A stretch of 64,000 nt of DNA, taken from assembly GCF_003019035.1 (NCBI RefSeq), contig NZ_CP027448.1, one strand, 5' to 3'. Shown here piece after piece: positions 3,346 through 61,831 of the stretch. The stretch comes from Escherichia coli (GTDB lineage: Bacteria; Pseudomonadota; Gammaproteobacteria; Enterobacterales; Enterobacteriaceae). The position numbers and the translations under genes were made by a program. The stretch's first letter is position 1; every line of letters starts with the position of its first letter. A model generated the notes under the pieces. It had not been told where the DNA came from. It worked only from the letters and a program-made list of their open reading frames with translations, and ran no database searches.

Positions 3346-4077
3346 TCAGAGAATATTTGCGATTGATTTGGCCAGCTGGTCTTCGAGAACAGGCTTCGCC
3401 TCTTCAAATTTCAGGTTAACCTTGTTCGCACTGGAGACCACACGGGTCTGATATTTATGCTGGTTACCTGTTTCAGTACTGGTCTGAATTTTCGCACCTG
3501 AAGTGCCCTGACGCAGGGCGGCAACATTATCTGTTGTCACCGTTGTCTTAGTACGCTCTGCAATCTGCACATCCGTGATCATGGTATAGTTCACATCTTC
3601 CACCATCGCATCTGCAGCCATACCCACCAGACCAGCAGCAAGGCCCACACCGAGTGTGGCACCGGCAGAATTGGAATTATATCCGGTAATACCGGCACCT
3701 AACGCTGCACCAACAGCTGCGCCTTCATAACCACGGTTCAGCCATCCCTGAGACTCCCGCAGATCCATCTTATCGGCCTTCAGCACATTCGCCTGAATCC
3801 AGTAGTAGGCTTTATCCGGAGAAGTCACCACCTGATACCCTTTTGCTTTCACAGCATCAGCAATTTTGCCCTGCAGCCCACTCATGTCTTTATCAGACGT
3901 GTTTTTGATCTGCAGAAATACCGTGCGTTCGCTGGCGGGTTCAAGCCAGATGGTCTCACTCATCTGGGTCTTCACCTCAAGGTTACGCTTCTTGATTGCT
4001 GTGCTCATCGCACCACACCCTGAAAGGGCCAGAGTGGAACTGACCAGTGCAACCATCATCAATTTTTTTGTTTTCAT
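3346..4077 (-). CDS. traT: Surface exclusion lipoprotein TraT
   Basis: 243 aa, lipoprotein signal [21 protein letters not shown]; position between traS and traD as in F. Confidence 0.95.
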
Positions 4078-4090
4078 CCAAAATATCCTT

Positions 4091-4600
4091 TTAACTAACA
4101 GACTCTTTTTTGAACAGCCCTATTACTGAGGCTATAGCTGAGAGATTATAACGATTTATGTCTATAGCATAAATAAAGAAAAAGATTATAAACAAAGCAA
4201 TTAATAAAAACTCATATAAGAGTGTATGGGCAAATGAAACCATTGAAAAAGCAATCAAAAATGACAAGATATAAGTTTTGTTCTTATCATACATAAAAGA
4301 TATAACTTTCGACTCATCTCTGAATTTTTCAGGGATAGCAAGATACAACATCATTCCATTAGTAATGGCAACAAAAAGGATAAAACCCATTACGCCACTA
4401 AAACATATATCAAATCCGGCATCTCGGATATCAATTTTATCTGCCAGCAAACGAAGAAATGTTGGCCATAATAAAACCCATAAAAACACATACCCCCCTG
4501 GCTTTATGACCTGTAATAATGGCGGGATATTAACCCCGTCTACAGAGAGTACATCCTTTAGTTTCTGTGTCTCCATTTTTATATCATAGTGAGTGATCAT
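4091..4600 (-). CDS. traS: Entry exclusion inner-membrane protein TraS
   Basis: 169-aa hydrophobic protein located between traG and traT; assigned by position and character, sequence family is variable. Confidence 0.7.
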
Positions 4601-9975: not shown

Positions 9976-10246
9976 GTCCGCCCTCCTGCTGCCCTTCCAT
10001 CATGGCCTGTTGCCTGGCTTCCAGTGCCTCACGCTCTTCCCGGCTGACACGGGCAATCCATGCATCCAGCACCTGGTATGCGCCGAACAGTACGAGAATG
10101 GCCGCAATCAGCTCCGCCAGAAAAAAAGCCATCCAGGGTTTGCTGTAAACAAGACGGGCGACGATATGAAACCAGACACCCAGGGAAAATACCCACATTC
10201 CCGTAATATCAAGCCGGGGTAAAGAGAATCTGCGTTTACTTATCAT
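9962..10246 (-). CDS. traQ: TraQ pilin chaperone
   Basis: 94-aa membrane protein in the F-type position. Confidence 0.7.
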   Translation of the reverse strand: MISKRRFSLPRLDITGMWVFSLGVWFHIVARLVYSKPWMAFFLAELIAAILVLFGAYQVLDAWIARVSREEREALEARQQAMMEGQQEGGHVSH

Positions 10247-10326
10247 GTTAAACTCCGGTTATTATTTACATGAGAGTATTCATGTCTGTAATATTCGCGT
10301 TTGTGTGATATTAATCAGAGGTACAA

Positions 10327-10641
10327 ATGGAAAAGCGATCTTTTAAAGAAAAACTGGAAATAATCAGAAACATAATAAGAGAGTCGTTACTGGGAAATGC
10401 GGCAATTATTGCGCTGATATATGCAGCATCACATTCATTACCGGTCAATGCCTTCCCTGACTATCTTGTAATAACTTTATTAAGTATCGCAGCAGGCATC
10501 GTTGTATTATGGTTATTTTCAATTATCTATATTTATTTTTGTGAGCTATTCAGAAGCCACTGGATTGCGGTATGGTTTATCATATGGTCTTCAGTAATCA
10601 ACCTCATTATTTTGTATGGTTTTTATGACCGTTTTATATGA
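10327..10641 (+). CDS. artA: ArtA (anti-sense-orientation ORF within tra region)
   Basis: 104-aa hydrophobic ORF on the opposite strand between traQ and trbA, the F artA arrangement. Confidence 0.55.
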   Translation: MEKRSFKEKLEIIRNIIRESLLGNAAIIALIYAASHSLPVNAFPDYLVITLLSIAAGIVVLWLFSIIYIYFCELFRSHWIAVWFIIWSSVINLIILYGFYDRFI

Positions 10642-10642
10642 C

Positions 10643-10990
10643 TTAGCCTGTCATAAGCCCCCTTATAAAAAACCACATCACTCCGGACCATACCGATGAC
10701 AACACAATACAGATAAATATTCTTCTGAACCTGTCGAAGTTCGTAACGTCCGGTAATGCGGCCGCAACTATTGAAACAACCAGTGCTGCGCCCTGACTCA
10801 TAATTGCACCACACAGAGACCAGAGACTGGCGGTAAGCACATATAAACACGCGATATTAATAACAAGGAAAACCAGTGAGCTCAAGAGAAACATTTTCCT
10901 GTCATTACGCTCAGAAAAGAAATAACCGGCAATAATGACAAATATTAACAGAACAACACCTGTAAACATTTTCAAATAATCTTCACTCAT
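10643..10990 (-). CDS. trbA: TrbA
   Basis: 115-aa membrane ORF between traF and artA/traQ as in F. Confidence 0.6.
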   Translation of the reverse strand: MSEDYLKMFTGVVLLIFVIIAGYFFSERNDRKMFLLSSLVFLVINIACLYVLTASLWSLCGAIMSQGAALVVSIVAAALPDVTNFDRFRRIFICIVLSSVWSGVMWFFIRGLMTG

Positions 10991-11005
10991 AAATCAAATC
11001 CGCGA

Positions 11006-24936: not shown

Positions 24937-25623
24937 TTATTTAACACCATAAAATTCACGAATTATACTTAATAGCGAATCTATTTCTCCTTTATATATA
25001 CATGACACTCTGAATAAATCAAAGTGTTCAAAAAACTCTTTTATTTTCCGTTTAACTGGTTTAATTCGATCCTCAGATGCTCTGTCTGTAATACCCAATT
25101 CTCTGGCAATTGTTGCGTGACCAACACCCAGCATATAAAAAGAGAAAACAACCAATGTTCCTGGAGAAAGATCATTCCATATCGTTAATTGACCAGAAGT
25201 ATTTGTATTACTTACACTCTGATTTAACGCAAAAAATGGATAATCAGGAAACGGATTAATTTGCCATAAAACAACAGATTCGTCATTATAAAAAGAAACA
25301 TTCTCCATCCTTATCTGATAGATTTCGCCATGAAAATTAAAACGACGACAAAATGCAGAGCCATGTCCAAGAGCCTGGCATTCCAGTTCAAGTGATGAAA
25401 GAAAAATTTCAACCTGCAGACGTATATAACTCTCTCCGGATAAAGGTTTATCTTCTCTGGAAAAGAGTTCAATAAAAGCCCCATTGGCATAAAGGATTTT
25501 CCGGTTTTTGTTACGGACACAAACCGGAACGGGAGAATTTCTGTAGATATTCTGAACGTTAAGGATGTATTTATTTACAGATTGACTGTTTAGTGGCCTT
25601 TCTCTACGATCCAGCGCACACAT
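24937..25623 (-). CDS. traJ: TraJ transfer activator (start set to MCALDRR..., 228 aa)
   Basis: ORF 24937-25701; ATG 25623 has GGAGG 5 nt upstream; position between traM and traY. Sequence is not the F allele as I recall it. Confidence 0.75.
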
Positions 25624-25692
25624 AGGAACCTCCAGTAAGGATTCTATGGACAGTCGATGCAGGGAGTTACAGCTCCCTGCATCGGCGATTTT
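25618..25692 (+). ncRNA. finP: FinP antisense RNA (candidate), complementary to traJ RBS/start
   Basis: Plus strand opposite traJ leader shows imperfect stem-loop (25622-25648) then perfect hairpin GATGCAGGGAG-TTAC-AGCTCCCTGCATC (25656-25683) followed by T-rich tract: terminator-like, as expected for FinP. Ends approximate. Confidence 0.55.
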
Positions 25693-25812
25693 CAGTTTCA
25701 ATTTTTAACGTGGTATTAACCACATAATTAATATACTAATTATCTGACGTATTGTCATCTTTTTGAATCATAAAAATTCTTATATTTGAACCAACTCAAA
25801 CTTCATTTTCAT

Positions 25813-26196
25813 TTATTCATCATCATTTTTTGGGAAAAACCGGTCCATCTCAACAGACACTTTCTCTCTGATATCGTCAACCATACTGGCATATTCAAAC
25901 TTCGGGTTTCCGGAGACATGAGGACTGAGAGACTCAATACCTAAAATTTTCGCTACTGATGATTGTGTTTTTACAACGCATTCAAGAAGTAATTTATTAA
26001 ACTCAGTCTGATTAAATGCAGACTCTTTACGCTCCATCTGAGCGTCATATACACGGAGCCCTAATTCAAGAAGCATTGAAGCAGTTCCTGAAAGGCTTAT
26101 ATCTTTATCTCTTGCTCCCTCCTGACGACGCTTTTCAACAATCATGTTAATTTTTTCATGAACCTCATTACTGATATACAGATTTACTCTGGCCAT
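25813..26196 (-). CDS. traM: TraM relaxosome accessory protein
   Basis: 127 aa MARVNLYISNEVHEKINMIVEKRRQEGARDKD... closely matches remembered F TraM. Confidence 0.95.
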   Translation of the reverse strand: MARVNLYISNEVHEKINMIVEKRRQEGARDKDISLSGTASMLLELGLRVYDAQMERKESAFNQTEFNKLLLECVVKTQSSVAKILGIESLSPHVSGNPKFEYASMVDDIREKVSVEMDRFFPKNDDE

Positions 26197-26610
26197 AAGA
26201 CAGTACCTTTTAGATTCTGAAATAAGAGTTTTATTTCATCTACTCATAGTATGGTCTGAAAAAATAAGAGCACCCCTAGCAGCGCCCCTAGGGGCATACT
26301 ATAAAAAAACGCACGGCGCTGCTAGGGGCGGCCCTAATATATCCAAATGTTTTTCATGAAAATTGTCAAAACTGACCCTAACAAGGGTCGTCATAGGGTC
26401 GTTATAGGGTCGTCAACGACCCTATTTAATAATGTAAAATAAATTAAAATACATTATTTAGAACATAAACTAATGATTTAAAAAACAAATCAGCAAAAAC
26501 TTGTTTTTGCGTGGGGTGTGGTGCTTTTGGTGGTGAGAATCACCAACCTGTTGAGCCTTTTTGTGGAGTTGGTTAAATTATTTACGGATAAAGTCACCAG
26601 AGGTGGAAAA
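26197..26610 (+). promoter_or_regulatory. oriT: oriT region; nic predicted between 26519 and 26520 on the plus strand
   Basis: Sequence TTTGCGTGGGGTGT/GGTGCTTTTGGTGGTGAGAATCACC matches remembered F nic region; lies between traM and orf169; direct/inverted repeats at 26280-26340 and 26385-26425 are candidate TraM/TraY/IHF sites. Confidence 0.85.
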
Positions 26611-27120
26611 ATGAAAAAATGGATGTTAGCCATCTGCTTGATGTTTATAAATGAGATCTGCCATGCCACTGATTGCTTTGATCTTGCAGGCTGGGATTAC
26701 AAAATAGATCCTGATTTACTGAGAGCAATATCATGGAAAGAATCCCGTTACCGGGTTAATGCCATCGGTATTAATCCGGTAACGGGATATGGCAGCGGAC
26801 TGATGCAGGTAGATTCCCAGCATTTTAACGAACTGGCCCGCTACGGAATTAAGCCAGAACATCTGACAACAGATCCCTGCATGAACATTTATACCGGTGC
26901 TTATTATCTGGCAATAGCATTTAAAAAATGGGGCGTCACCTGGGAGGCCGTTGGTGCATACAATGCAGGATTCAGGAAATCCGAACGCCAGAACCAGAGA
27001 CGTCTTGCCTACGCATCAGAGGTTTACCGGATTTATACCGGGATAAAAAGCAGTAAAGGTATCCGGCTTCCGGCCACGAAGAAATCACTTCCGGAAATTA
27101 ACAGCGTGCAGAACAATTAA
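26611..27120 (+). CDS. Lytic transglycosylase (F orf169 / gene X / R1 gene 19 type)
   Basis: Start set at [10 protein letters not shown]... (169 aa) inside ORF 26518-27120 because the longer ORF would read across nic; signal peptide and ...WKESRY... transglycosylase-like motif. Confidence 0.85.
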
Positions 27121-43847: not shown

Positions 43848-44281
43848 GTACCGTTTATCACCGTCCGGCTGACCCTTCAGGCGATGACAGTTACGTGCGA
43901 CCGTTGTTTGCCGATCGTTGCCAGGCCGGTTTTCCTTCGCCTGCCACTGATTATGCTGAGCAGGAACTGGATCTGAACAGCTATTGCATCAGCAGACCTG
44001 CAGCCACCTTCTTTCTGCGCGCCAGCGGTGAATCGATGAACCAGGCTGACGTGCAGAATGGTGATCTGCTGGTAGTGGACAGGGCCGAAAAACCACAACA
44101 CGGGGACATCGTTATCGCTGAGATCGACGGTGAGTTCACCGTCAAACGACTGCTGTTGCGCCCACGCCCGGCACTGGAGCCGGTTTCAGACAGCCCGGAG
44201 TTCCGCACACTGTATCCGGAAAACATCTGTATTTTTGGTGTTGTCACTCACGTGATACACAGGACGCGGGAGTTACGCTGA
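43844..44281 (+). CDS. impA: UmuD/ImpA-like S24 peptidase subunit of error-prone polymerase
   Basis: 145 aa with Ser-Lys dyad context (ASGESM ... FTVKRL). Confidence 0.88.
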   Translation: MSTVYHRPADPSGDDSYVRPLFADRCQAGFPSPATDYAEQELDLNSYCISRPAATFFLRASGESMNQADVQNGDLLVVDRAEKPQHGDIVIAEIDGEFTVKRLLLRPRPALEPVSDSPEFRTLYPENICIFGVVTHVIHRTRELR

Positions 44282-44407
44282 TGTTTACACTGGCTGATAT
44301 CAACAGTTTCTACGCCTCATGTGAAAAAGTTTTCCGCCCGGACCTTCGCAACGAACCGGTCATCGTACTCAGCAATAACGATGGCTGTGTGATCGCACGC
44401 AGCCCAG
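44281..44407 (+). pseudogene. impB: 5' fragment of umuC/impB-like Y-family polymerase gene, interrupted by insertion
   Basis: Translates MFTLADINSFYASCEKVFRPDLRNEPVIVLSNNDGCVIARSP then homology is lost at 44408. Confidence 0.85.
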
Positions 44408-44453
44408 ATTATGTGGAATTGCAAGTAACGTTGTAGTGCTGATGAGGAAAATT

Positions 44454-46682
44454 TTATCTGACTACAATATTGATATCGTTTTCCGCAACAATCAGCATCA
44501 CGGCAGGTAAACCCTCCACACGCATTTTCTGGTGTAATTTTTTGATTAAATTATCATCTTCATTACTGGCTTTTGCGGAAAAGCCTTGTGGATGGGAGTG
44601 CCATTCGCCAACATAATCGACAACACGAGCGGTCAACTGGTGAACCCGTTCTAATGCTTCTTGTTGTCCCGCTTCTCCCCGGACAAAGGAGGCTGGAGAG
44701 GATTTACTGTCGATAGGTTCAGGGAGCACGTCAACCAGAATAATCGTTTTGTTCTTAAAATCTGTTATGCCAACAATTGCACCTCCTGTTTCATTAGGCA
44801 GTGCCTGTAAGCGGGTGTGCTGCAATTTTTGCGCTAAGCCCTGGTCATATTTAACAACCCATTCGCCAGAAATTATAGATACCACGGAATAGAGTTCAAT
44901 TTCATGTGCATCCATCGCGCCTGATATTTCATCAGATACCCAGATACACAATCGAGCATTTCCTTTGAGTGCAGTCTGGCGAAGTTGGCGTGAGAGGATA
45001 CCGGCATGAACATGAATACATTCACTGGACATACGTACAGAAATATCCCGACATCCACCACCGACCCAACGATCGCCATAATTGTGCTGTAGGTGAGTAC
45101 TTCCCCACTCACTGCTCAAAATTGCCCGATAGTATTGCCCCTCAATTGCATCAATTCGGCATTGTCTGTCTACATCCTCCATTAACATCACGCTAGACTG
45201 ACCCGATGGAGTCAGAAACAGGCTAACTATTCTGGGTATATCATCTTTTAACACTAGAGTCCTCGGCACCTCAAAGGTGGTACTGACATCCACAACTAAG
45301 TCTGCCTCATTCATTGCCTTAGCAATATCATCATCGTCATCAAGAATACTTTTATGGATCGCCTGAGGGAGGGGCTCATGCGGATAAATAGATTTGGCAA
45401 TATGCTGAATAATATGGGGTTTTGAGACTCCAATATGACAATCAAACCCAATATGGCGAGACAAATTATGTGGAAGAAGCCGATCTGGATCAATAAAAGT
45501 CCATGTCCCCCACCCCATTCGAATCCAAATATCAGCCAATGTACTACCAAGAGCGCCAACTCCAGCTAAAATACCTCGAAAAGCTGCACTCTCTGAATCA
45601 ACAGCAGATATGTCTCTCGCATGTGTGGCCTTCATAGCCGAACGTATTTCAACTGGTAAAAGCGGTAATTGTCGCCACTTGGTACTAATTGATCCGCCAA
45701 GAAGCCGTACGCGATGCTGTACTCCTCGCTCATTTTTTGGCGCCAGCATATCTAGTGCAGTGGCAAGTTCACCGAGTGAACTTTGCACAACATAGCCCAT
45801 CACATCCGTACGTTCTGTTTCTCCGTTTCTTAGACGGGGGATCCAAAGCAGGATAAGTAAGCCTTCTCCTTTACCAGACGTTGGGCGGATACCATCACTT
45901 GGTATTGCTTCATAAACAGCGTCAGTTAGTGGTTTTAGGAGCTCACTTCCCCATTCATTAAGTTGTTCTTCTAATTTTCCCAGATTATCCGGGTATGTAG
46001 CCACCGTAGAAACATCGACAGGAGGAACAGCAATAGTTAATAAGCGAAATGGCTTAACGCTTGAGGTATCTTGTTCTGGTACAGCCCTTAAAATAATCGG
46101 TCGCCCCTCACTGACCATCTGGAGACTGAGCTTATTGTCAGTCGCGTGATGATAATCGGGGTAATTGGCTGGCAAAATGAGCTGATAGGGACTCAAATAA
46201 AAAAGTTGCTCAAGTGGCTGATCTTCTCGATGTAGATGCAGTTCGGCCGATTCTCTAAGCCACCAAAAAATGCGCTCAAGGAATCTCTCGGGGGTCCAAC
46301 TGCGCTCAACTGCGCTCCAGGAGGCCTCATATAGGCAAAGAATTCGTGGTGAGCCAGGTTCTCCAGCATGCTGGTGAGAAAGAACAGGGAAATCTTTCCG
46401 CAATGCATGAACCAAGATAGGTATGCTTGATTTGGGATTGACCTCAATAGCCAATCGTTCTTTACGACGAATACGGGCTTGATTACCAGAAGCCACAGTC
46501 CCATCAGCAGCATCAATGATTAGATATTCCGAGCGGTTATCATTTATTTCAGAAAATCGTAATTCTCTGACTGTGACGTAAGGATGATTCTCGCATGCTT
46601 TAAGCAGCGAAATCGTTTGTGGATAAAGGCTATCGCGCCCCGATGAATCGAGGCGCTCACCCAATTCGAAATATTCGATCAT
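44454..46682 (-). CDS. Multidomain E2-like / E1-like (ThiF) / JAB-JAMM peptidase fusion protein (742 aa)
   Basis: HQH..10 aa..C (E2-like), GILAGVGALGSTLADIW...IDPD (ThiF Rossmann), EWHSHPQGFSAKASNEDD (JAMM HxH..S..D) read directly from the translation; ATGA overlap with upstream MBL gene. Confidence 0.75.
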   Translation of the reverse strand: MIEYFELGERLDSSGRDSLYPQTISLLKACENHPYVTVRELRFSEINDNRSEYLIIDAADGTVASGNQARIRRKERLAIEVNPKSSIPILVHALRKDFPVLSHQHAGEPGSPRILCLYEASWSAVERSWTPERFLERIFWWLRESAELHLHREDQPLEQLFYLSPYQLILPANYPDYHHATDNKLSLQMVSEGRPIILRAVPEQDTSSVKPFRLLTIAVPPVDVSTVATYPDNLGKLEEQLNEWGSELLKPLTDAVYEAIPSDGIRPTSGKGEGLLILLWIPRLRNGETERTDVMGYVVQSSLGELATALDMLAPKNERGVQHRVRLLGGSISTKWRQLPLLPVEIRSAMKATHARDISAVDSESAAFRGILAGVGALGSTLADIWIRMGWGTWTFIDPDRLLPHNLSRHIGFDCHIGVSKPHIIQHIAKSIYPHEPLPQAIHKSILDDDDDIAKAMNEADLVVDVSTTFEVPRTLVLKDDIPRIVSLFLTPSGQSSVMLMEDVDRQCRIDAIEGQYYRAILSSEWGSTHLQHNYGDRWVGGGCRDISVRMSSECIHVHAGILSRQLRQTALKGNARLCIWVSDEISGAMDAHEIELYSVVSIISGEWVVKYDQGLAQKLQHTRLQALPNETGGAIVGITDFKNKTIILVDVLPEPIDSKSSPASFVRGEAGQQEALERVHQLTARVVDYVGEWHSHPQGFSAKASNEDDNLIKKLHQKMRVEGLPAVMLIVAENDINIVVR

Positions 46683-47866
46683 TGGTTTGATACACCTGCC
46701 CTAGGAGCGGCGGCCGTAGCAGCACTTACCGCAGCTGAAACAGCACCAACAATAGCGGGTATTAACTTCCCGTCTCCAGCCACTTCAAATTCAAGGAACG
46801 CTGTATCTTTAAGATCCCCCGTACAGCTAAACCAACCATCAACACTGTCCAGAATATCCTCATACTCACGCTTAGCCCGGATGCACGGTGGATCATAATC
46901 ATCATCAAGTATCTGATTGCTACTCGATACAATTGTTGCCCCGGAACGAGCCTGACCTAAAGCATTACGGGCCGCATCACAAACTTCAGCATTCTCCCCC
47001 CATTGTGACCAGCTATCATAGGAAAGTGAATGCCATGAACAATGATGCGGTGTGAGGAGAAGATCATATTCTAGTGCCTCAGCATTGCTTTTGTAACGAT
47101 CCCATAATCGCTCCCAGATGAGAACTTCTGCGTCTCCACCTAATAGAAAGTGCATAGGATTACGGGAATATGCAGAGGGCAGTATTTTCATGTTCATGAT
47201 GATACTGGATTCGTTTTTAGAAAGAGCTTCTTCCAAATATTCATCATCTTCATGTGGTGCGGGCGCCAGAAGCTGTGCGGAGAACACTTCTGAAATTTGC
47301 CCGTCAATTCTGGTGAATGTATCTCCAGCTTTGATAAGAATGGCACTCAGATCATCTGTTTTGCCATTAATATCTTCACCCATGATAAGGATTCGATTAC
47401 CGCTAGATGCATAACCATGTTCCCGCCAGTATTTTACTCGGCGCCGTGCTTCTGTATTAAATGCCTGAGCATCTTCGCAAAGTGTGTGACTTTTGGAACG
47501 ACGCCGAAAAATCAATGGTGATGACCACAATTCTCGAATAATGATACGCTTTTCTGAACGTTTCACATCGTCATCTGGATAATCTTCAGGACGGCCCAGC
47601 CAGAAATGTTTACGCAGGCCACCGCAATGATCCTGATCGGGATGACTGAGCATAAAAACATCAATAAAGGGACGATCTTTTTCATCATACTTCAATCTGC
47701 TACGTAATGCCGAGGCAACATCAGGTGTGTCATCATTGGGGTTATCAGCAGCAGAGCGAATATGTACATCAATCAGAATGGATGTGCCCCGGGTGTCGGC
47801 CAAACGTACCAGTGTCATATCACCGTTGCCGACTTGGAAAAAAGTAATTTTGGCTGCCATCGACAT
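46679..47866 (-). CDS. Metallo-beta-lactamase-fold protein (395 aa) with Ala/Gly-rich C-terminal tail
   Basis: MBL-like motifs ...LIDVH..., SHPDQDHCGG, ...TPHHCSWH...; C-terminus ...AIVGAVSAAVSAATAAAPRAGVSNQ. Confidence 0.75.
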   Translation of the reverse strand: MSMAAKITFFQVGNGDMTLVRLADTRGTSILIDVHIRSAADNPNDDTPDVASALRSRLKYDEKDRPFIDVFMLSHPDQDHCGGLRKHFWLGRPEDYPDDDVKRSEKRIIIRELWSSPLIFRRRSKSHTLCEDAQAFNTEARRRVKYWREHGYASSGNRILIMGEDINGKTDDLSAILIKAGDTFTRIDGQISEVFSAQLLAPAPHEDDEYLEEALSKNESSIIMNMKILPSAYSRNPMHFLLGGDAEVLIWERLWDRYKSNAEALEYDLLLTPHHCSWHSLSYDSWSQWGENAEVCDAARNALGQARSGATIVSSSNQILDDDYDPPCIRAKREYEDILDSVDGWFSCTGDLKDTAFLEFEVAGDGKLIPAIVGAVSAAVSAATAAAPRAGVSNQ

Positions 47867-47994
47867 CTCCTTTAGGGATACGAAAGATTGAGGTTAAGAG
47901 CATCTATTGCTAAGATACATCTAGTAATTATACTAGTCTAGTAATTAGACGTATATTTTGGACTTAAATTGTAAGTACAGGAAATTATTGATAA
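47867..47994. promoter_or_regulatory. Divergent promoter/operator region with tandem direct repeats (TCTAGTAATTA x2)
   Basis: AT-rich intergenic region between divergent MBL operon and WYL gene; repeats at about 47918-47950. Confidence 0.4.
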
Positions 47995-48849
47995 ATGAGT
48001 GATAAAATGGTGAGAACTGGTCATTGGAGCCAAGAAAGACGGCTTGAATTCATCGATTTTCGCCTACTGTGGGAAGGTCGGCTTAACCGTGCAGATCTCA
48101 CGACATTTTTCAGAATTTCAGTTCCGCAAGCCTCATTAGATTTGGCAAAATATCAAGAAGTTGCGCCAAACAACATGGTGTATGATCGAACTCAGAAGGC
48201 TTACATTACGACTCCTGATTTCAAACCTGTTTTTACAAGCTTTGACAGTAATCATTACCTGAATGAACTACTTGGGCGAGAAAATGAAATAGTGGATCCT
48301 GATGATAGTTTCATTGGGTGGGTACCCCCGGTAGCCAGCCTTCCTCTCCCTGCCAGGAAAGTACAACCTGAAATATTGATTGATTTAATTCGAGCCATGC
48401 AAAGAAAACAGGCTTTGGTTGTTGATTATCGCTCAATGACTAATGAACCAGCAATTCGTACGCTATACCCAACAGCATTTGCACATGATGGGCATCGGTG
48501 GCATGTTCGTGCTTATTGTTTTAAGTCTACAATGTTTAAAGATTTTGTTCTTGGTAGGTTTTTTAAAATCGTTGAATTTGTTTCCCCACCGACATCAATT
48601 CCACAAGATGTGGACTGGAATACATTTATTGACGTGGTAATAGGTCCAAACCCTAACTACGATATGAATAAACGGCTATCTATTGAACATGATTATCAAA
48701 TGGTAAAAGGAGAAGCAAAAATCCACATACGTAAAGCGCAATTATATTATCTTAATCGTCGATTAAATTTGGATGTAAATAGCGATGGTTCAATAGATGA
48801 CAAACAGCAGATCATCATGCTCAGAATAGACGAGTCTAAAACCTATTAA
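47995..48849 (+). CDS. HTH-WYL domain transcriptional regulator (BrxR/CapW-like)
   Basis: 284 aa; central ...HDGHRWHVRAYCFKSTMFKDFVLGRFFKI... fits the WYL pattern; N-terminal HTH-like region. Confidence 0.7.
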   Translation: MSDKMVRTGHWSQERRLEFIDFRLLWEGRLNRADLTTFFRISVPQASLDLAKYQEVAPNNMVYDRTQKAYITTPDFKPVFTSFDSNHYLNELLGRENEIVDPDDSFIGWVPPVASLPLPARKVQPEILIDLIRAMQRKQALVVDYRSMTNEPAIRTLYPTAFAHDGHRWHVRAYCFKSTMFKDFVLGRFFKIVEFVSPPTSIPQDVDWNTFIDVVIGPNPNYDMNKRLSIEHDYQMVKGEAKIHIRKAQLYYLNRRLNLDVNSDGSIDDKQQIIMLRIDESKTY

Positions 48850-48861
48850 GGGAATATTTAT

Positions 48862-49380
48862 ATGAATGCGAATGATGTTAACAAACGGAATAAAGAATGG
48901 ATGATTGTAATCATTATTATCTATCTTTTTATTTTGTTATGTATAGCAACATACGCTATTGGGGCTATGTCTCTAGGTTGGTTACCAACACCTTACGCAC
49001 CATTAAGGGTGCCACTGATGTGCGGAGCAATTGCCTATATAGGTGGTTGTTTATATTGTTTTCGTGCAATTTACCTCAATAAATGTATTAGAAAACAATG
49101 GGATCCAGATTGGCATGTATGGTATTTCATTCGCCCACTGACCAGTACAATCGCAGGTGCTATCAGTTATTTATTCCTTAAGGCGGGGTTGTTAGTTTTG
49201 GAGTCTAGTTCCAATGTAGGAGCTAGTGAAATGGGTTTCTTTGCGCTGGCATTTATTGCTGGTTTTAACGTCGATAAATTTGTCGCAAAAATCGAGGAAG
49301 TTGCAAAGGCTGTCTGGGGTATTGAAAAAACTCGAAGCTCGACTAATAATGATGCGAAAAATTCGGAAAAAAAAGAATAG
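48862..49380 (+). CDS. Small membrane protein (about 4 predicted TM helices, 172 aa)
   Basis: Hydrophobic segments throughout; 12 bp downstream of the WYL gene. Confidence 0.55.
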   Translation: MNANDVNKRNKEWMIVIIIIYLFILLCIATYAIGAMSLGWLPTPYAPLRVPLMCGAIAYIGGCLYCFRAIYLNKCIRKQWDPDWHVWYFIRPLTSTIAGAISYLFLKAGLLVLESSSNVGASEMGFFALAFIAGFNVDKFVAKIEEVAKAVWGIEKTRSSTNNDAKNSEKKE

Positions 49381-49426
49381 TCTGGATGTATTTAAATTAA
49401 AATGAAATTAGTGCTGAGCTATTTTA

Positions 49427-50746
49427 TTACTTTCTCTTATTTCCTGGGGTCGCGCCCCCAGTGAGCTTATTCAAAAGTTTGTCCACTGCCTGTATATCGT
49501 TTTCTACAGCGGCTTGTTCGTCATCAGTCAAAGGGATTTCCTGCATCAGCTTGAGTAGATTCTGGCGACCTTCCAAGTATTGTGCTTCAGATGAAGATTT
49601 TGGCATATAAAATGAGCATTTTGCACATGCCATCCGATGGGGGCATTGCTCAAAAAAGTCATAAGTACAGAAACCGTGTCCAAGATCATAATAACGCCAT
49701 GGCTTCCCGGATGCTACCAGCCCTTCAGCTATCGCGTCTTGATCAATGAGAACTGAAACCATGCGGCGATTACATTCAAAGTAACCAGCTTTATCCAGTG
49801 ATCCTGCCAACCTCGTCGGTGTAATTTCGACATAATGTCGGGTAGATTCAGGTGAAGAATGCCCCAACCATTTCTGTAGCTCAAAAATATCAAGTGGTTC
49901 CCTGGCGTTGTAAAGCTGACTGGCTATAGTGGCTCTTGCCCGATGGCTGGTGATTTTACCTCTGGCATCCTGCTCAGGTATACCAGCCTTTCTGCATAGC
50001 AAAGGGATTAGCGAATTATTAATATAACTACTGTGTACCCGTTTCCCCCTGTGCATGAACAAAAAACGGACGCTTTCACCTGTTTTAGAATCTTCCTGGA
50101 GGGGGTGGGGGTTACGAACAAGTTCCCATTGTTCGATATATTCCCCGATAATAGGGTCAACTGGCTTTGTGAATGCCGCGTAAGTCTTGCTAACGGGTAC
50201 ATCTATCAGACAGATACGGGATACATTATTTTCTTCTGGCTGTTGCCAGCGGATACACCCACACTGCATACGTAGAATTTCATCACGTCTGAGGCCTCCA
50301 AATAACCAGAGAACGCTGAGTGCTCTGACCATCTCCAGTGGATAAAAATAAGGATATGCAACACAGTTTGGTAAATCCGACTCCTGCAGGTTCTGTCCGG
50401 CGTGAAGTAATTTACACCACATATCATCGGCCACAATACGAGGCTCTGGTCCAACCAGGGAAGTCAAGCTACGCGGTGCCCTGAAAACTCTTTCTGGGCT
50501 GAATCGTACAGGTATCCATCCCCATTCCTGCAAGTCATGAAAGAAAGTTCTAATATGACCCAACATCCTGGCTCTCGCTGCAGGCATCATCATTTTGCCA
50601 CGACGGTCACGATACATGCCCCCAGGGGTTGCCCATTCACCAACTTTCATTCTACAAGCGGCGGTCACCCAGACGATCGCGGTGTCCCGTGTCCAATCAG
50701 ATGGTGACAGACAGGTTGGATAGCACTCAGCTAACCAGCTGACCAC
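49427..50746 (-). CDS. Tyrosine recombinase/integrase (439 aa)
   Basis: Catalytic signature residues: ...GGLRRDE..., ...SHRARAT..., ...LGHSSPESTRHYV... Confidence 0.85.
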   Translation of the reverse strand: MVSWLAECYPTCLSPSDWTRDTAIVWVTAACRMKVGEWATPGGMYRDRRGKMMMPAARARMLGHIRTFFHDLQEWGWIPVRFSPERVFRAPRSLTSLVGPEPRIVADDMWCKLLHAGQNLQESDLPNCVAYPYFYPLEMVRALSVLWLFGGLRRDEILRMQCGCIRWQQPEENNVSRICLIDVPVSKTYAAFTKPVDPIIGEYIEQWELVRNPHPLQEDSKTGESVRFLFMHRGKRVHSSYINNSLIPLLCRKAGIPEQDARGKITSHRARATIASQLYNAREPLDIFELQKWLGHSSPESTRHYVEITPTRLAGSLDKAGYFECNRRMVSVLIDQDAIAEGLVASGKPWRYYDLGHGFCTYDFFEQCPHRMACAKCSFYMPKSSSEAQYLEGRQNLLKLMQEIPLTDDEQAAVENDIQAVDKLLNKLTGGATPGNKRK

Positions 50747-51677
50747 ACTTTAGCAAAACGTACCAACCGGACAAAATAGATGAAGGGCGAAGTACTGAGG
50801 TAGCACGCCACCGTTTGCACCATACCAGCCATTTAGTTGGTACATCAGCTGTTGCATTATATTCGCGGGGAGGACGGCGACGTTGTGTTATTCGGTAATC
50901 AACCCCTTCCTCAATAGTCCCTGATGCAGCCAGTATACGCGATAGAGTAGCTGAGGCTTCCCGGAGGGAATCCGGGCACGTTGCAGCAATCTGTTGCAAC
51001 GTGGTCACGGTGATATGGTCTAGTTGAGCATCCCTTTGCAGAAGCATTGCCATACACATGGCATTTCTGATGCCGTTGTTCCGACTATCACGAGGCACAT
51101 ATCCCAGAACCTGCATCATATTGTCAAGCTGGCTGACGGCAAAATCGGTGCTCTGTCGGCCAAAAACCTTAAGACAGAGCCGATATTGATAGAATATGCC
51201 ACAGTGTTCCAGCCGCTCAAACCCACATAGCAACCATGCTAACGCTATAACATATTGCCGACAGTTGCCGCTGGCTCCAAACCGTCGACGAAATTCCCCT
51301 TCGCTGTTGCAAATAACTTCTAACCACTCTTCTTGTGTCCAGGCCCAGTATGTTTTCCGGATGCGCTGCATCTCTAGGACTATATCGTGAATAGATGAAT
51401 TGTAGGGGGCCTTGGCCGCATGCATTTTTGTTAGCGTGTCGCGTAGTGGTAAAAGAAGGCGGGAAAGCCGTTTTTGTATATCAGGTGACCAGTTTTTACC
51501 TCCTTGCTGGAAGTGGTCGACCAATGTATCCAGTGCCGCAAGCTCGCTTTCAGAGATCTCCGATCGGGTATCCCAAAGTAGGGCAGGAAGACTGAGTGAT
51601 GTTGTCGGACAAGGCGCTGTATGTTCAGATTGCATCATGGAGAAGGATCCTGCTGTTGTAGTACAGTAAGGCGGCAA
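50727..51677 (-). CDS. Recombinase-operon middle gene (316 aa), divergent/uncertain
   Basis: Overlaps both neighbours (translational coupling); no clear R-H-R-Y motifs seen by eye. Confidence 0.55.
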   Translation of the reverse strand: MPPYCTTTAGSFSMMQSEHTAPCPTTSLSLPALLWDTRSEISESELAALDTLVDHFQQGGKNWSPDIQKRLSRLLLPLRDTLTKMHAAKAPYNSSIHDIVLEMQRIRKTYWAWTQEEWLEVICNSEGEFRRRFGASGNCRQYVIALAWLLCGFERLEHCGIFYQYRLCLKVFGRQSTDFAVSQLDNMMQVLGYVPRDSRNNGIRNAMCMAMLLQRDAQLDHITVTTLQQIAATCPDSLREASATLSRILAASGTIEEGVDYRITQRRRPPREYNATADVPTKWLVWCKRWRATSVLRPSSILSGWYVLLKCGQLVS

Positions 51678-52687
51678 GTATGCAAGGATGCGACCGTGTA
51701 ATTGAAACGACTACTCAGATCACGTGCGCTGAGATGAATATAGAGCAGAGTTGACTGGATACGACGGTGGCCAGCGAATGCAGCAATTTCGTGGATGTCC
51801 CACCCCACGCGTGCCAGTTCTGTCAGACAAAGATGTCGGAATGTGTGGGTGCTGATGAGTGGAAGATCAGCCTTAATAGCTAAACCGCGAACTACTTTTG
51901 ACCAAGTCCAGTTGCTAATAGGTTCTGCCCGATTACGCGGAGAGCGTGAGAGAAACAACGGACCGCGAGATGAGCTTAGCATACGACGTTCAGTGAGCCA
52001 TGCTGTGTAGAGTTCCCCCGTCACAGGAGAATAGGGCACAACCCGACCAAAGCGGTTTTTGGTATGCTCAGCGCGCACAGTGAGCAAGCGTTGAGAAGGG
52101 TCAATATCTCCGGTAGCTACTGTGCAAAGTTCTTCTCTGCGTAATCCGCAGTCGTAGGCCAGTGCCAGCATAAAACGAGTACGGATATCAGCTTGTCCGG
52201 CTACCTCAAGAAAGCGCAACCACTCCGCATCATCCGGGATCCACGGTAGCCGCCGCTGCAACGGCACTATACCAGCTTTTCCTTTCCCTCCGTTTTTCCA
52301 GACACCTCGTCTGACAGGATTTCTCTCCCGTATCCCCTCCTCACAAAGCCAATAGTTGTACAGTCGTACCACCGTCAGCCGGTGGCGGATAGTGGCAGCT
52401 GCCAGCTGGCGACCGGTATGCAGGCTGCGGACATAGAGTGCGACCGTATCACGTCCAGCGACAGCAGCCGTCAGGGCAACAGAGTGACAGAAAGCGAGCC
52501 AGTCATTGACGCCACGGGCATAGGCATCAATGGTGTTTGGAGCACACAGCAGGTCCTCCTGCAGGCACACCCACCGGCAAGCTGAAGGATCGGCCGACAG
52601 AAAAGGCAGCGCATCCAGCAGTTTCTTGTGCACAGCATCCCCCTTTTCGATAACAGAATGTGTTGTATGAAATATAGTCAATTCCAA
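51635..52687 (-). CDS. Tyrosine recombinase (XerC/D-like, 350 aa)
   Basis: ...CGLRREEL..., ...HTFRHLCLTELA..., ...GHRRIQSTLLYIH...; start lies 9 bp from element end. Confidence 0.85.
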   Translation of the reverse strand: MELTIFHTTHSVIEKGDAVHKKLLDALPFLSADPSACRWVCLQEDLLCAPNTIDAYARGVNDWLAFCHSVALTAAVAGRDTVALYVRSLHTGRQLAAATIRHRLTVVRLYNYWLCEEGIRERNPVRRGVWKNGGKGKAGIVPLQRRLPWIPDDAEWLRFLEVAGQADIRTRFMLALAYDCGLRREELCTVATGDIDPSQRLLTVRAEHTKNRFGRVVPYSPVTGELYTAWLTERRMLSSSRGPLFLSRSPRNRAEPISNWTWSKVVRGLAIKADLPLISTHTFRHLCLTELARVGWDIHEIAAFAGHRRIQSTLLYIHLSARDLSSRFNYTVASLHTCRLTVLQQQDPSP

Positions 52688-52696
52688 ATAACATAG

Positions 52697-59522: not shown

Positions 59523-61831
59523 AATGCACCTCATCTTACATACTCTCTGTACATCATTAAGTATACACCAGTATTACGCTATAACATGCCTCCGGAAACG
59601 GAATATTGTTATCTGGCTATTATTAACACAATCATCAATAACTGACCTAAAAAGTGATCATGGAAATAATAACCGTCAATGTAGTAACCATGATAAATTA
59701 CAGGATGACTGTTTTTCTATGATCCGATTTTTATGGGATTCAGGATTTTCCGGAAGTGAATCAGGATCAGTGAATAAGCGAAGCGATCTTTTCTGCCGCT
59801 GATGACTGACTCGGGAACACGGGAAGAAACACAACATAGAGCGTCATGTCAGCGAAGCGTGACACCACATCCTGTAAAAGCGGACCAGCGGGCGGCAGCG
59901 AAGGATCTGCGGATCCGGAACTACCTTTTTTCGGATCTTATTAGTGTAGAAGAACGATTGTTGCGGTGAGGGGATTATTGCTTAGGAAGCAAAATTCAAA
60001 ACTGACTAAGCCAGAAATAGCAACAACAAGATAAGGAAATTTTCCCCCTCAGCCCCTGCATGCCGTGAGGGGGAGCAACTACCCAGCTACAGTTTTCATT
60101 TTATGATACGTCTTCACTAGGTAATACCTGTGAACTGACAGAGTCTTTATGGAGTGTATGGCGGACCTAAATTTGATCCCTGAAAACTGTCAGCGCTGCG
60201 AGGACGAAGAAAGTATTACGGCTAAAGCCGTAATACCTCCCCATCCAGCTTCAAGCTATGTAGAAACTTATGTGGGTAGAGCAGTCCCGACAGGGCAGTA
60301 CCGCATTGACAGGCCGTCAGGGCCGCTTACGAGCTTGTATGACAAGGGGGCCGTCTGGATATAGCGAATTATTGTACGGTAAGCCTTTTTTGAACACCTT
60401 ACCTATTGCTATAGAGGGAAACTCCTACGTTATACGCCGCTTTCAGGGGATTCGACCTTAATGAGACAACTCAAATATGATCGACAACTTAAACGCGATA
60501 GCTGCTGATAAAATCAATCCATTACGCGTTTCAATTGATTAAATAATGCACTTAATGTACAAAAATTTCCGATCTCAAAACTGAACCCTAAAGATACCAG
60601 GCATCTCCCCCAGGAAGCGCCCTCATGCGTTTTCCTGTTCCGCCTCTGCCACCTACCTTCTGTTTCATACTTGTTGTATTATTGTTTTTTGTTTTCAATC
60701 CCCAAGGAGACGTCGCTATATGACTGTGCGGGAGACAGAGGAAAACATTGAACAAATCTTCCCTGAGCTTTCGAACTTAATTGATATTATTAATAAATGG
60801 CTTTCCCATGGAAACATTGATCCCGAACTGGCACACTTCATCATTTATCTTCTTGATTACCTAACCACCACACACAAAAGCATATAAAAAATTTCCTTGC
60901 ACATCCATTTCTTTGCGAATATTATTATCCCCGCTGAATATGATTCAATATCGCACGCTACTCATCCATCCCTGGATAATGAGTACATAGGTTGAAGTTT
61001 CAACACCCCCACTACGGGGGTGTTTTTTTACCAATAAAAACAAATCACACCATCGCCATACCCTGTTTGCCAGACATTGATTGGTAAATATGCGTAACTC
61101 GCTATAATACAAAAAGAAAAATCAGAACCAGAAACTAGTTTCCAGATAAAAAACACCCTCCCGAAGGAGGGGACAGACACATTCATATTTCCCAAAACAG
61201 GAATTTTTATTTTTATGACGCATTAATGAAGTTACTTCATCTCCAGTAGATTAACTTCATTTAAAGTGGAGATCAATCATATTTATTACGACTCTAAACC
61301 ATTACAACAACCACAATAAGATATCACCTCAAATATAAAAGACAATTCTTACAAAAACATTCTGAAAACAAAAAAAATACAGATAAACACCAATAAAAAC
61401 AGAAAACTCCTACAAGATTAAAGATGGTAAAATAATATAGAACTGTTAGTCTAATGGAGAAGGCGCATCTAATTCAGAGCAATCTATTGCGAAGAATCAG
61501 AACAACAGTTATCCACAGATTCTGGGGATAACTGCAGAAAGAAGATGTGCAAGAAAAGTCAGCCCCCCGGGAAAGTATTCTTTCTGTTGGGAATCCAATC
61601 ACTATAGGATTCGCGAAGATGGTCAGTACCCGAGTAAAGTAGTTTACACTCTTACTGGCGCTGAACCGAAAAGGCAAAAAAGAAGTTCCAGGCCTGTATC
61701 TGACTAAAAGTGAAGACGCTAACTTCTGGCTATCGGTCCGCAAAACCGTGGTGTGGATGGTCTGACTGTTTTCCCATAAGGCAAACCAGCCTTTGAACAC
61801 ATAAAATATTTTTCTGGACTTTTATATAAAT

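What the first reader, a model, noticed from the sequence alone, without database searches (positions are those of the whole stretch)
47867..48849. WYL-domain regulator divergent from the candidate defence operon, with tandem operator-like repeats
An HTH-WYL protein is divergently transcribed from the MBL/E2-E1-JAB operon across a 128-bp AT-rich region containing two direct repeats (TCTAGTAATTA). WYL regulators such as BrxR and CapW control defence islands, which supports a defence role for the neighbouring operon and suggests ligand-controlled repression.
Basis: partly seen in the sequence, partly recalled or inferred. Interest (0 to 1): 0.55.

Follow-up and report, generated by a model that had tools for sequence, protein, structure and literature searches.

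The report
CapW repressor of a 6A-MBL defence operon
The gene is an ordinary member of the known CapW/BrxR family of DNA-damage-sensing repressors, sitting back-to-back with a known anti-phage system (6A-MBL), and the two "direct repeats" are part of a conserved three-box operator that covers the shared promoter region.

Summary
ORF 47995-48849 (+) encodes a 284-aa wHTH-WYL-WCX protein. It is transcribed divergently from an MBL gene and an E2/E1/JAB gene across an AT-rich gap (29.7% GC). That gap holds two exact copies of TCTAGTAATTA, 17 bp apart.

The protein is a close CapW homologue (PDB phmmer E=1e-62; about 40% identity). All four DNA-binding residues tested in S. maltophilia CapW are present. 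So are the RWHVR motif and the Ser/Arg residues that contact single-stranded DNA. The neighbouring operon is the known 6A-MBL anti-phage system, by two NCBIfam equivalog models scoring well above their cut-offs.

The repeats are not simple tandem operators. They are the right-hand parts of two 17-bp boxes, with a third box 15 bp further on; together they form a 42-bp imperfect palindrome. The same box array, spaced only 17 or 15 bp, lies upstream of CapW homologues that guard 6A-MBL, Wadjet and CBASS. Boxes 2 and 3 form GTCTA-N5-TAGAC, which aligns in register with the published E. coli CapW binding site.

The most likely mechanism is repression of both divergent promoters, relieved when single-stranded DNA binds the WYL domain. 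This is a new member of a known kind and of modest interest. The most interesting by-product is a membrane-protein gene co-transcribed with capW, which looks like an unlisted third component of the system.

The parts
47995..48849 (+). capW-like gene (284 aa): wHTH (~11-72), linker, WYL (~140-196, RWHVR at 168-172), WCX (~200-280)
   Evidence: PDB phmmer: 7tb6 E=1.2e-62, 7tb5 4.3e-62, 9c5g 1.8e-49, BrxR 7t8k 2.5e-38. Pfam WYL. AF2 model plus Foldseek: top hits are CapW and BrxR.
47861..47994 (.). Divergent promoter/operator region (128 bp if the MBL gene starts at 47866; 134 bp if at 47860)
   Evidence: GC is 29.7%. The central 47910-47962 is 76% conserved across 23 related intergenic regions, against 50% and 46% in the flanks.
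47914..47930 (+). Box 1, GATACATCTAGTAATTA; contains the first 11-mer repeat (47920-30)
   Evidence: Family PWM score 18.0 bits; one of the four best hits in the 64-kb window.
47931..47947 (+). Box 2, TACTAGTCTAGTAATTA; contains the second 11-mer repeat (47937-47) and the near-invariant GTCTA
   Evidence: PWM 17.5 bits. GTCTA is invariant in the 12-sequence alignment and kept in 21 of the 23 sequences.
47939..47955 (-). Box 3 read on the minus strand, TATACGTCTAATTACTA. On the plus strand it is 47946-47962 (8.3 bits), 15 bp after box 2.
   Evidence: PWM 20.4 bits, the best hit in the whole window. It mirrors box 1 about 47934.5.
47933..47953 (.). Best candidate CapW dimer site: CTAGTCTA-GTAAT-TAGACGTA, dyad centre 47943, perfect arms GTCTA/TAGAC
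   Evidence: Best dyad in the region, 8 of 12 pairs. In register with the published E. coli upec-117 CapW site (12 of 21 identical; CG cores 15 bp apart in the published site, of which the window keeps the right-hand CG at +7/+8 and G at -7, with A in place of C at -8). Binding itself is inferred.
47912..47917 (-). Inferred -10 of the MBL-operon promoter (TATCTT on the minus strand), at the left edge of box 1
   Evidence: By eye in the sequences listed (not counted by script), the reverse complement of 'A-n-TATA' at the edge of the first box reads TATAnT. The published E. coli site holds TATAAT at the same place relative to its box. Inference only; no transcription start data.
47935..47940 (-). 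Inferred -35 of the MBL-operon promoter (TAGACT on the minus strand), inside box 2, 17 bp from the inferred -10
   Evidence: Read from the sequence. GTCTA is near-invariant. Inference.
47952..47957 (+). Inferred -10 of the capW promoter (TATATT), inside box 3
   Evidence: Read from the sequence. The equivalent position reads TATAAT or TATATT in several relatives. The tool scan instead proposes TTGCTA(47907)-16-TATACT(47934). Weak inference.
46679..47866 (-). 6A-MBL enzyme gene (MBL fold); the true start is probably 47860
   Evidence: NCBIfam NF058524.1 equivalog, 425.6 bits against a cut-off of 220.
44454..46682 (-). 6A-MBL cap2_3 gene (E2-E1-JAB fusion, 742 aa)
   Evidence: NCBIfam NF058523.1 equivalog, 661.1 bits against a cut-off of 320. 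PADLOC E1-E2 and JAB models.
48862..49380 (+). 172-aa membrane-protein gene, 12 bp after the capW stop; co-transcription is inferred
   Evidence: Hydrophobic segments; no Pfam, NCBIfam or PADLOC match. A homologue follows capW or follows cap2_3 in 19 related loci. A multi-TM ORF follows capW in 20 of 28 MBL loci against 4 of 60 others.

Best explanation
The gene encodes a CapW-type repressor with a winged-helix, WYL and WCX domain, expected to act as a homodimer.

In unstressed cells it binds the three-box array at 47914-47962. The primary site is most probably the palindrome GTCTA-GTAAT-TAGAC, centred on 47943. The array overlaps the core elements of two back-to-back promoters. Binding therefore holds down both the 6A-MBL operon (MBL enzyme and Cap2_3, minus strand) and the capW operon itself (capW and a membrane protein, plus strand).

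When phage infection, prophage induction or DNA damage produces single-stranded DNA, that DNA binds the WYL pocket (S147, R168, R172, R188). The two winged-helix domains swing apart, the protein leaves the operator, and both arms are expressed.

Shown here: family membership, conserved functional residues, conserved gene pairing, and conservation and family-wide recurrence of the boxes. Inferred: binding, the exact site, the promoter positions, repression, and the inducer.
For: 1. Family membership. Full-length sequence matches to solved CapW structures have E values of 1e-62 to 1e-49, and 2.5e-38 to BrxR. The AF2 model (pLDDT 73.9) finds CapW, then BrxR, first in the PDB; the activators DriD and PafBC are far weaker.
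2. DNA-binding residues. R32, S42, Q45 and S47, whose mutation abolished DNA binding in Sm CapW (PMC9122588), are present at the same numbers. They are invariant across 12 relatives.
3. Ligand residues. The RWHVR motif and the Ser/Arg single-stranded-DNA contacts of Rl CapW (PMC11662680) align to S147, R168-R172 and R188.
4. Gene pairing. capW is divergent from MBL plus E2/E1/JAB in all 13 loci fetched by exact protein, from 91% down to 49% identity, in unrelated genomic settings. The same holds in 26 of 87 distinct loci overall.
5. Box array. A 17-bp box gives 149 hits in 87 capW upstream regions against 2.65 in shuffles, spaced only 17 bp (49 times) or 15 bp (27 times). The four best hits in the 64-kb window all lie in 47914-47955. 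The box region is 76% conserved against about 48% in the flanks.
6. Link to a published CapW site. The E. coli CapW 30-mer (PMC11662680) has the same dyad geometry and aligns in register with 47933-47953. Its reverse complement carries one of these boxes (13.5 bits).
7. Neighbour. The adjacent operon is 6A-MBL.
Against: - No binding, transcription-start or expression data exist for this locus.
- The region is so rich in overlapping symmetries (dyad centres near 47926-27, 47934.5, 47937, 47943 and 47950.5) that the true dimer site, and the number of dimers bound, cannot be fixed from sequence.
- The consensus scan finds only one weak promoter-like site, which is no more than shuffles give. The -10 and -35 assignments rest on conservation and analogy.
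- The ssDNA-contact serine is alanine in three relatives (P0021, P0041, P0032), so ligand contacts may vary within the clade.
- In E. coli CBASS, CapW induction was not needed for defence against lytic lambda (PMC9122588), so the biological weight of the switch is uncertain.
Confidence: 0.8

Rival explanations
1. The protein is a WYL-type transcriptional activator, like DriD or PafBC. It would bind the boxes only when loaded with single-stranded DNA and recruit RNA polymerase to the MBL promoter.
For: - WYL regulators of the same three-domain build include activators (PMC10853764, PMC11662680 Discussion).
- The box left half, TATACG(AC), resembles the DriD half-site ATACGAC.
- The inferred MBL promoter has non-consensus hexamers (TAGACT, TATCTT), which might need help from an activator.
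Against: - Sequence and fold place the protein with the repressors: about 40% identity to CapW against 13-18% to DriD/PafBC, and Foldseek E of 1e-25 against 1e-6 to 1e-8.
- The RWHVR motif is the stated hallmark of the repressor group.
- The boxes cover the inferred -10 and -35 rather than lying upstream of them.
Confidence: 0.06
2. The regulator controls only its own transcript (capW plus the membrane protein). The 6A-MBL operon would be constitutive or controlled elsewhere.
For: - capW and the membrane gene form a tight pair, with gaps of -8 to +50 bp across loci.
- Box 3 overlaps the inferred capW -10.
- BrxR autoregulates a promoter in front of its own gene (PMC9122601).
Against: - The array spans only 49 bp in a 128-134-bp gap and includes the conserved minus-strand TATnnT and TAGAC elements.
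- Published CapW sites overlap the -10 of the divergent defence operon (PMC9122588).
- The capW-MBL pairing is kept even where the membrane gene has moved behind cap2_3 (L012, L019, L020, L024).
Confidence: 0.08
3. The repeats are not protein-binding sites. They would be AT-rich promoter sequence that happens to repeat, or remnants of the mobile element.
For: - The gap is 29.7% GC, and short repeats are common in such DNA: repeats of 11 nt or more arise in 0.6% of shuffles.
- Part of the conservation can be explained by -10 and -35 elements spaced 17 bp apart.
Against: - Boxes resemble each other over 17 bp, which -10 and -35 elements do not.
- They recur upstream of capW homologues next to 6A-MBL, Wadjet and CBASS, at fixed 17 or 15 bp spacing, about 56-fold above shuffles.
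- A published CapW site contains one.
- Loci without any recombinase keep the boxes.
Confidence: 0.04

Closest known systems
CapW (E. coli upec-117, S. maltophilia C11, P. aeruginosa PA17, R. leguminosarum; PDB 7TB6, 7TB5, 9C5G)
   Same: - wHTH-WYL-WCX build, about 40% identity over the full length.
- DNA-binding residues R32/S42/Q45/S47, the RWHVR motif and the single-stranded-DNA contact residues are conserved.
- The gene lies upstream of, and opposite to, the defence operon.
- The operator is an imperfect palindrome of about 21 bp, in register with the published E. coli site.
   Different: - It guards 6A-MBL instead of CBASS.
- The gene is followed by a membrane-protein gene in the same transcript.
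- The operator is part of a three-box array (spacing 17 + 15 bp). As far as I could read, that array is not described in the CapW papers, which speak of single palindromes.
BrxR (Acinetobacter NEB394, PDB 7T8K; E. fergusonii pEFER, PDB 7QFZ)
   Same: - Same fold and same domain-swapped dimer family (Foldseek E about 1e-20).
- Its operators are two 10-11-bp half-sites with a 5-bp AT-rich spacer, the same geometry as GTCTA-N5-TAGAC plus flanks.
   Different: - 26-31% identity.
- The recognition-helix motif differs: S37-R38-Q39-Q40 in BrxR against P44-Q45-A46-S47 here.
- brxR is the first gene of, and co-directional with, the BREX operon.
DriD / PafBC (WYL-domain activators of DNA-damage responses)
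   Same: - Single-stranded DNA is sensed by the WYL domain.
- The DriD operator ATACGAC-N7-GTCGTAT shares the ATACG half-site flavour with the boxes.
   Different: - They are activators.
- 13-18% identity.
- They bind duplex DNA only with the ligand, the opposite logic.
6A-MBL anti-phage system (Iyer et al. 2006 operon type 6a; van den Berg et al. 2024)
   Same: The two neighbouring genes pass both NCBIfam equivalog models. The operon type was described in 2006 as an MBL gene plus an E2-E1-JAB triple-module gene (PMC1779556).
   Different: The curated definition has two proteins. Here, and in most relatives, a regulator and a membrane protein travel with them. I could not read the 2024 paper to see whether it notes them.
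CapH+CapP and CapK+CapS (other DNA-damage-responsive controllers of defence operons)
   Same: Same position next to defence operons and the same inducing signal. Seven MBL operons are reported with CapK+CapS (PMC13373217).
   Different: Unrelated proteins and mechanisms: protease cleavage of a repressor, and phosphorylation of a repressor.

Membership tests
CapW/BrxR family (wHTH-WYL-WCX repressors) | Three-domain architecture: N-terminal winged helix, central WYL, C-terminal WCX | tested here: met
   Full-length alignments to 7tb6, 7tb5 and 9c5g. Pfam WYL. Precomputed WHD_BrxR + WYL + BrxR_CTD. AF2 secondary structure and Foldseek hits.
CapW/BrxR family (wHTH-WYL-WCX repressors) | RWHVR motif and the conserved Ser/Arg pocket that binds single-stranded DNA | tested here: met
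   R168-W-H-V-R172, S147 and R188 align to the Rl CapW contact residues (PMC11662680). R168, W169, R172 and R188 are invariant in 12 relatives; S147 is Ala in 3.
CapW/BrxR family (wHTH-WYL-WCX repressors) | DNA-contact residues of the winged helix (Sm CapW R32, S42, Q45, S47) | tested here: met
   Identical residues at the same numbers; invariant in alignment A2.
CapW/BrxR family (wHTH-WYL-WCX repressors) | Encoded next to a defence operon (for CapW: upstream, on the opposite strand) | tested here: met
   Divergent from 6A-MBL in the window and in all MBL-linked relatives.
CapW/BrxR family (wHTH-WYL-WCX repressors) | Pseudo-palindromic operator of about 19-25 bp overlapping the promoter | tested here: met
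   This is a sequence-level test only. Site 47933-47953 (8 of 12 dyad pairs) is in register with the published E. coli CapW site. It overlaps the inferred -35 of the MBL promoter.
CapW/BrxR family (wHTH-WYL-WCX repressors) | Homodimer that binds the operator and represses; released by single-stranded DNA or DNA damage | not testable with these tools
   Needs EMSA or fluorescence polarisation and reporter assays.
6A-MBL anti-phage system (neighbouring operon) | MBL-fold enzyme and Cap2_3 (E2-E1-JAB) proteins, adjacent | tested here: met
   NF058524.1 at 425.6 bits (cut-off 220) and NF058523.1 at 661.1 bits (cut-off 320). The two genes overlap by 4 bp.
DriD/PafBC-type WYL activators | Close sequence or fold similarity to the activator group; operator upstream of the core promoter | tested here: not met
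   13-18% identity; Foldseek E of 1e-6 to 1e-8 against 1e-25 for CapW. The boxes overlap the inferred core promoter elements.

The most novel reading that the evidence does not exclude
The single CapW-controlled switch drives two arms of a system with three working parts. The membrane protein co-transcribed with capW (48862-49380) would be an unrecognised effector or partner of 6A-MBL, with the three-box, 17 + 15 bp operator array setting its expression together with that of the MBL and Cap2_3 proteins.

The slot behind capW is filled by a multi-pass membrane protein in 20 of 28 MBL-linked loci against 4 of 60 others. Some of these membrane proteins are unrelated to one another, and in four loci the homologue sits behind cap2_3 instead.
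Probability: 0.4. Interest if true: 0.5.

Novelty: new member of a known kind. Interest (0 to 1): 0.3.

Why it matters
The regulator itself adds little: CapW/BrxR proteins are already known to sit beside many defence systems and to sense single-stranded DNA.

What is useful is practical. It tells anyone studying 6A-MBL, whose mechanism is still open, three things:
- In its native setting the system is probably silent until DNA damage or infection.
- Cloned constructs should keep or deliberately remove capW and the 47914-47962 array.
- A membrane-protein gene on the capW transcript may be needed for function.

The family-wide 17-bp box gives a simple sequence handle for finding CapW-controlled promoters in front of 6A-MBL, Wadjet and CBASS operons.

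Tried and rejected
- **Simple tandem direct repeats as the whole operator.** Rejected. The 11-mers are built from self-complementary CTAG and TAATTA, so direct and inverted readings coincide in the window. Relatives show 17-bp boxes and a third box.
- **One clean palindrome conserved across relatives.** Not found. Dyad scores peak at five centres about 8 bp apart, as expected for a periodic array of near-palindromic boxes.
- **The perfect local palindromes CTAGTA-ATTA-TACTAG and TACTAG-T-CTAGTA as the site.** Rejected. They are absent from the Pseudomonas-type relatives, whose winged helix is nonetheless conserved.
- **The regulator serves the mobile element (the three recombinases).** Rejected. 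The capW-MBL cassette occurs without recombinases in most genomes, and the cargo and the recombinase trio are separable in plasmids.
- **The membrane protein is a general CapW partner.** Rejected. It is rare behind capW in non-MBL loci.
- **Searches that gave nothing.** NCBIfam gave no family for the regulator. Pfam, NCBIfam and PADLOC gave nothing for the membrane protein.
- **Papers not held.** van den Berg 2024, Ledvina 2023 and Chambers 2024 could not be read, so what the 6A-MBL paper says about regulators is unchecked.
- **Looking for an uninterrupted impB site with a joined query.** Inconclusive. Only 12 plasmids match contiguously, at about 78-81% identity.

Full report
**What is there**

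The window holds an ORF at 47995-48849 (+, 284 aa). It is divergent from 46679-47866 (-, 395 aa) and 44454-46682 (-, 742 aa), which overlap each other by 4 bp. The gap, 47867-47994, is 128 bp and 29.7% GC, against 39-46% in the flanking genes.

The first ATG of the minus-strand gene follows AGGAG directly. The second ATG, at 47860, lies 6 nt after it. It gives the 393-aa product that RefSeq annotates for the identical gene in pSE11-2, and that gene callers give for the homologues. The gap is therefore more probably 134 bp.

TCTAGTAATTA occurs at 47920-30 and 47937-47 and nowhere else in the 64 kb.

**The protein**

phmmer against PDB sequences gives S. maltophilia CapW (7tb6) at E=1.2e-62 over residues 10-282. 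P. aeruginosa CapW (7tb5) scores 4.3e-62, R. leguminosarum CapW (9c5g) 1.8e-49, and the two BrxR structures 2.5e-38 and 2.5e-30. Pfam finds the WYL domain. The precomputed domain string of the identical database protein is WHD_BrxR + WYL + BrxR_CTD.

An AF2 model (mean pLDDT 73.9) retrieves CapW, then BrxR, at Foldseek E of 1e-25 to 1e-18. The activators PafBC and DriD follow only at 1e-8 to 1e-6. TM-scores are only about 0.5. I attribute this (not tested) to comparing a monomer model with chains of a domain-swapped dimer.

- The four residues whose mutation abolished DNA binding in Sm CapW (R32, S42, Q45, S47; PMC9122588) are present at the same numbers. They are invariant in 12 relatives spanning 48-100% identity.
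- The RWHVR motif, which the CapW authors give as the mark of the repressor group, is R168-R172.
- The other single-stranded-DNA contacts align to S147 and R188.

Membership of the CapW/BrxR family is met on every feature that sequence can test.

**The neighbour**

NCBIfam equivalog models name the two minus-strand genes. They are the MBL-fold enzyme (425.6 bits, cut-off 220) and the cap2_3 protein (661.1 bits, cut-off 320) of the anti-phage 6A-MBL system.

This is operon type 6a of Iyer et al. 2006 (PMC1779556). Later papers cite van den Berg et al. 2024 for its anti-phage activity and list it among jumbo-phage defences of P. aeruginosa. I could not read the 2024 paper itself.

**Is the pairing real?**

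Thirteen loci were fetched by exact protein, from Klebsiella, Pectobacterium, Aeromonas, Providencia, Yersinia, Pantoea, Pseudomonas, Vreelandella and metagenomes. All have capW divergent from MBL plus E2/E1/JAB across 113-136 bp, in unrelated surroundings, down to 49% CapW identity. A genome-wide scan added 80 loci. Of 87 distinct upstream regions, 26 are MBL-linked.

Seven of the others were sampled. Six are divergent from Wadjet jetA and one from a CBASS phospholipase effector.

**The operator region**

An alignment of 23 distinct MBL-linked gaps shows a conserved core. It corresponds to window 47910-47962 and has 76% mean column identity, between flanks at 50% and 46%.

An iterated position-weight matrix gives a 17-bp box, T-A-T-n-C-G-T-(A/C)-T-A-n-T-W-W-T-T-A:
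- It yields 149 hits in the 87 upstream regions, against 2.65 ± 1.3 in shuffles.
- Neighbouring boxes are spaced 17 bp (49 times) or 15 bp (27 times) and, with one exception, nothing else.
- MBL-linked loci typically show the pattern 17 then 15.

In the window the boxes are 47914-30 (18.0 bits), 47931-47 (17.5 bits) and 47946-62 (8.3 bits). On the minus strand, 47939-55 scores 20.4 bits and 47922-38 scores 14.4 bits. These four are the best hits of the whole 64 kb on either strand.

The array as a whole is an imperfect palindrome about 47934.5. CTAG and TAATTA are self-complementary, so the window alone cannot tell direct from inverted repeats.

**Which part is the dimer site?**

Known relatives bind about 20-25 bp pseudo-palindromes:
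- BrxR binds 10 + 5 + 10 and 11 + 5 + 11 bp.
- DriD binds ATACGAC-N7-GTCGTAT.
- CapW binds 19-24 bp sites overlapping the -10 of the defence promoter.

The 2024 CapW paper prints the E. coli upec-117 site, TAAAAACTGATCGTATAATAATGCTACGCT. Its dyad pairs CGTA with TACG at positions ±5 to ±8, so the CG cores are 15 bp apart. Its reverse complement contains a box of the present type (13.5 bits). Aligned centre to centre it matches window 47933-47953 at 12 of 21 positions, including G-7, T-6, T-4, A-3, the central TAAT, and A+6, C+7, G+8.

That window site, CTAGTCTA-GTAAT-TAGACGTA, is also the best dyad in the region (8 of 12 pairs; perfect arms GTCTA/TAGAC). I take it as the primary site.

Boxes 1 and 2 form a weaker mirror-image site centred near 47926-27. 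Whether a second dimer binds there, 16-17 bp away and sharing box 2, cannot be decided from sequence.

**Promoters (inferred)**

By eye in the sequences listed (not counted by script), the two bases before the first box plus its first four bases read A-n-T-A-T-A. On the strand of the defence operon that is TATAnT. In the published E. coli site this hexamer is TATAAT.

- MBL promoter: in the window the equivalent -10 is TATCTT (47917-47912). The near-invariant GTCTA of box 2 gives TAGACT (47940-47935) exactly 17 bp upstream. This places a start near 47905.
- capW promoter: a plus-strand -10, TATATT (47952-57), lies in box 3. It reads TATAAT or TATATT in several relatives.

The consensus scan found only a different, unconserved plus-strand candidate, at chance frequency. 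These assignments are therefore weak. Whichever is right, the array covers every candidate core element.

**Mechanism**

By homology, the dimer occupies the array and blocks both promoters. Single-stranded DNA from DNA repair, prophage induction or infection binds the WYL pocket and spreads the winged helices, releasing the DNA (PMC11662680). I rate this at 0.8.

Rivals are an activator mode (0.06), pure autoregulation without control of 6A-MBL (0.08), and non-functional repeats (0.04).

**A by-product**

capW is followed after 12 bp by a 172-aa hydrophobic protein that has no family match.
- Homologues follow capW in most MBL-linked loci, with gaps of -8 to +50 bp.
- In L012/L019, L020 and L024 the homologue lies behind cap2_3 instead.
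- Where no homologue exists, an unrelated multi-pass membrane protein often fills the slot.
- A multi-TM ORF directly after capW is found in 20 of 28 MBL-linked loci against 4 of 60 others (Fisher p=6.6e-10).

This looks like a variable effector or partner slot belonging to the system, expressed from the autoregulated capW promoter.

**Context**

The four genes plus three tyrosine-recombinase genes (49427-52687) interrupt a plasmid impB/umuC gene. The gene is cut after codon 41 (window 44403) and resumes at 52696. The full 8.4-kb block is in 37 plasmids and in some chromosomal umuC genes. The cargo alone is in 170 plasmids and the recombinase trio alone in 120.

**Verdict**

It is a new member of a known regulator family next to a known defence system. 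The repeat description needs refining: three boxes, dyad-symmetric, overlapping the promoters. Interest is modest at 0.3.

Noticed in passing
window 48862-49380 (+); L012:1848-2345, L020:1-357, L024:2-427: A 172-aa membrane protein with no family match is co-transcribed with capW. Its homologue moves to behind cap2_3 in some loci, and unrelated multi-TM proteins fill the slot in others. Multi-TM ORFs follow capW in 20 of 28 MBL loci against 4 of 60 others. It is possibly an unlisted third component of 6A-MBL.
   Followed up: partly
window 44404-52695; recombinase genes 49427-50746, 50727-51677, 51635-52687 (-): An 8.3-kb insertion splits a plasmid impB/umuC gene: the N-terminal 41 codons lie at 44281-44403 and the rest starts at 52696. 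It carries three adjacent tyrosine-recombinase-like genes plus the defence cassette. The same block is in 37 plasmids and in chromosomal umuC of some E. coli. Cargo and recombinase trio also occur separately (170 and 120 plasmids).
   Followed up: partly
window 47860-47866: The MBL gene more probably starts at the second ATG (47860, 393 aa), which has AGGAG 6 nt upstream. This agrees with RefSeq and the homologues, so the intergenic gap is 134 bp, not 128 bp.
   Followed up: yes
L022, L023, L034, L036, L040, L075 (Wadjet jetA); L044 (CBASS capV): The same 17-bp box arrays (two or three boxes, 17 or 15 bp apart) lie upstream of CapW homologues that guard Wadjet and CBASS. Several of these loci also share a TGTGGCACAAT / TGTGCAAGAAT element just after the last box, possibly an extended -10 for capW.
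   Followed up: partly
L003:1241-2326, L007:1204-2289, L008:1510-2316, L012:7169-8245: A second, roughly 270-360-aa gene with a faint Lactamase_B hit lies beside the cassette in several relatives, on either side and on either strand. It is absent from the window.
   Followed up: no
window 25725-25742: The next-best box-like match in the window (AATTAGTATATTAATTA, 13.6 bits on the minus strand and 10.6 on the plus) lies in a low-GC stretch (25001-27000, 36-41% GC). It is probably a chance match in AT-rich DNA.
   Followed up: no
window 4001-5000, 10001-11000, 25001-27000, 61001-62000: Several 1-2-kb stretches have 36-41% GC in a window averaging 50.6%, suggesting other acquired insertions in this plasmid.
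   Followed up: no
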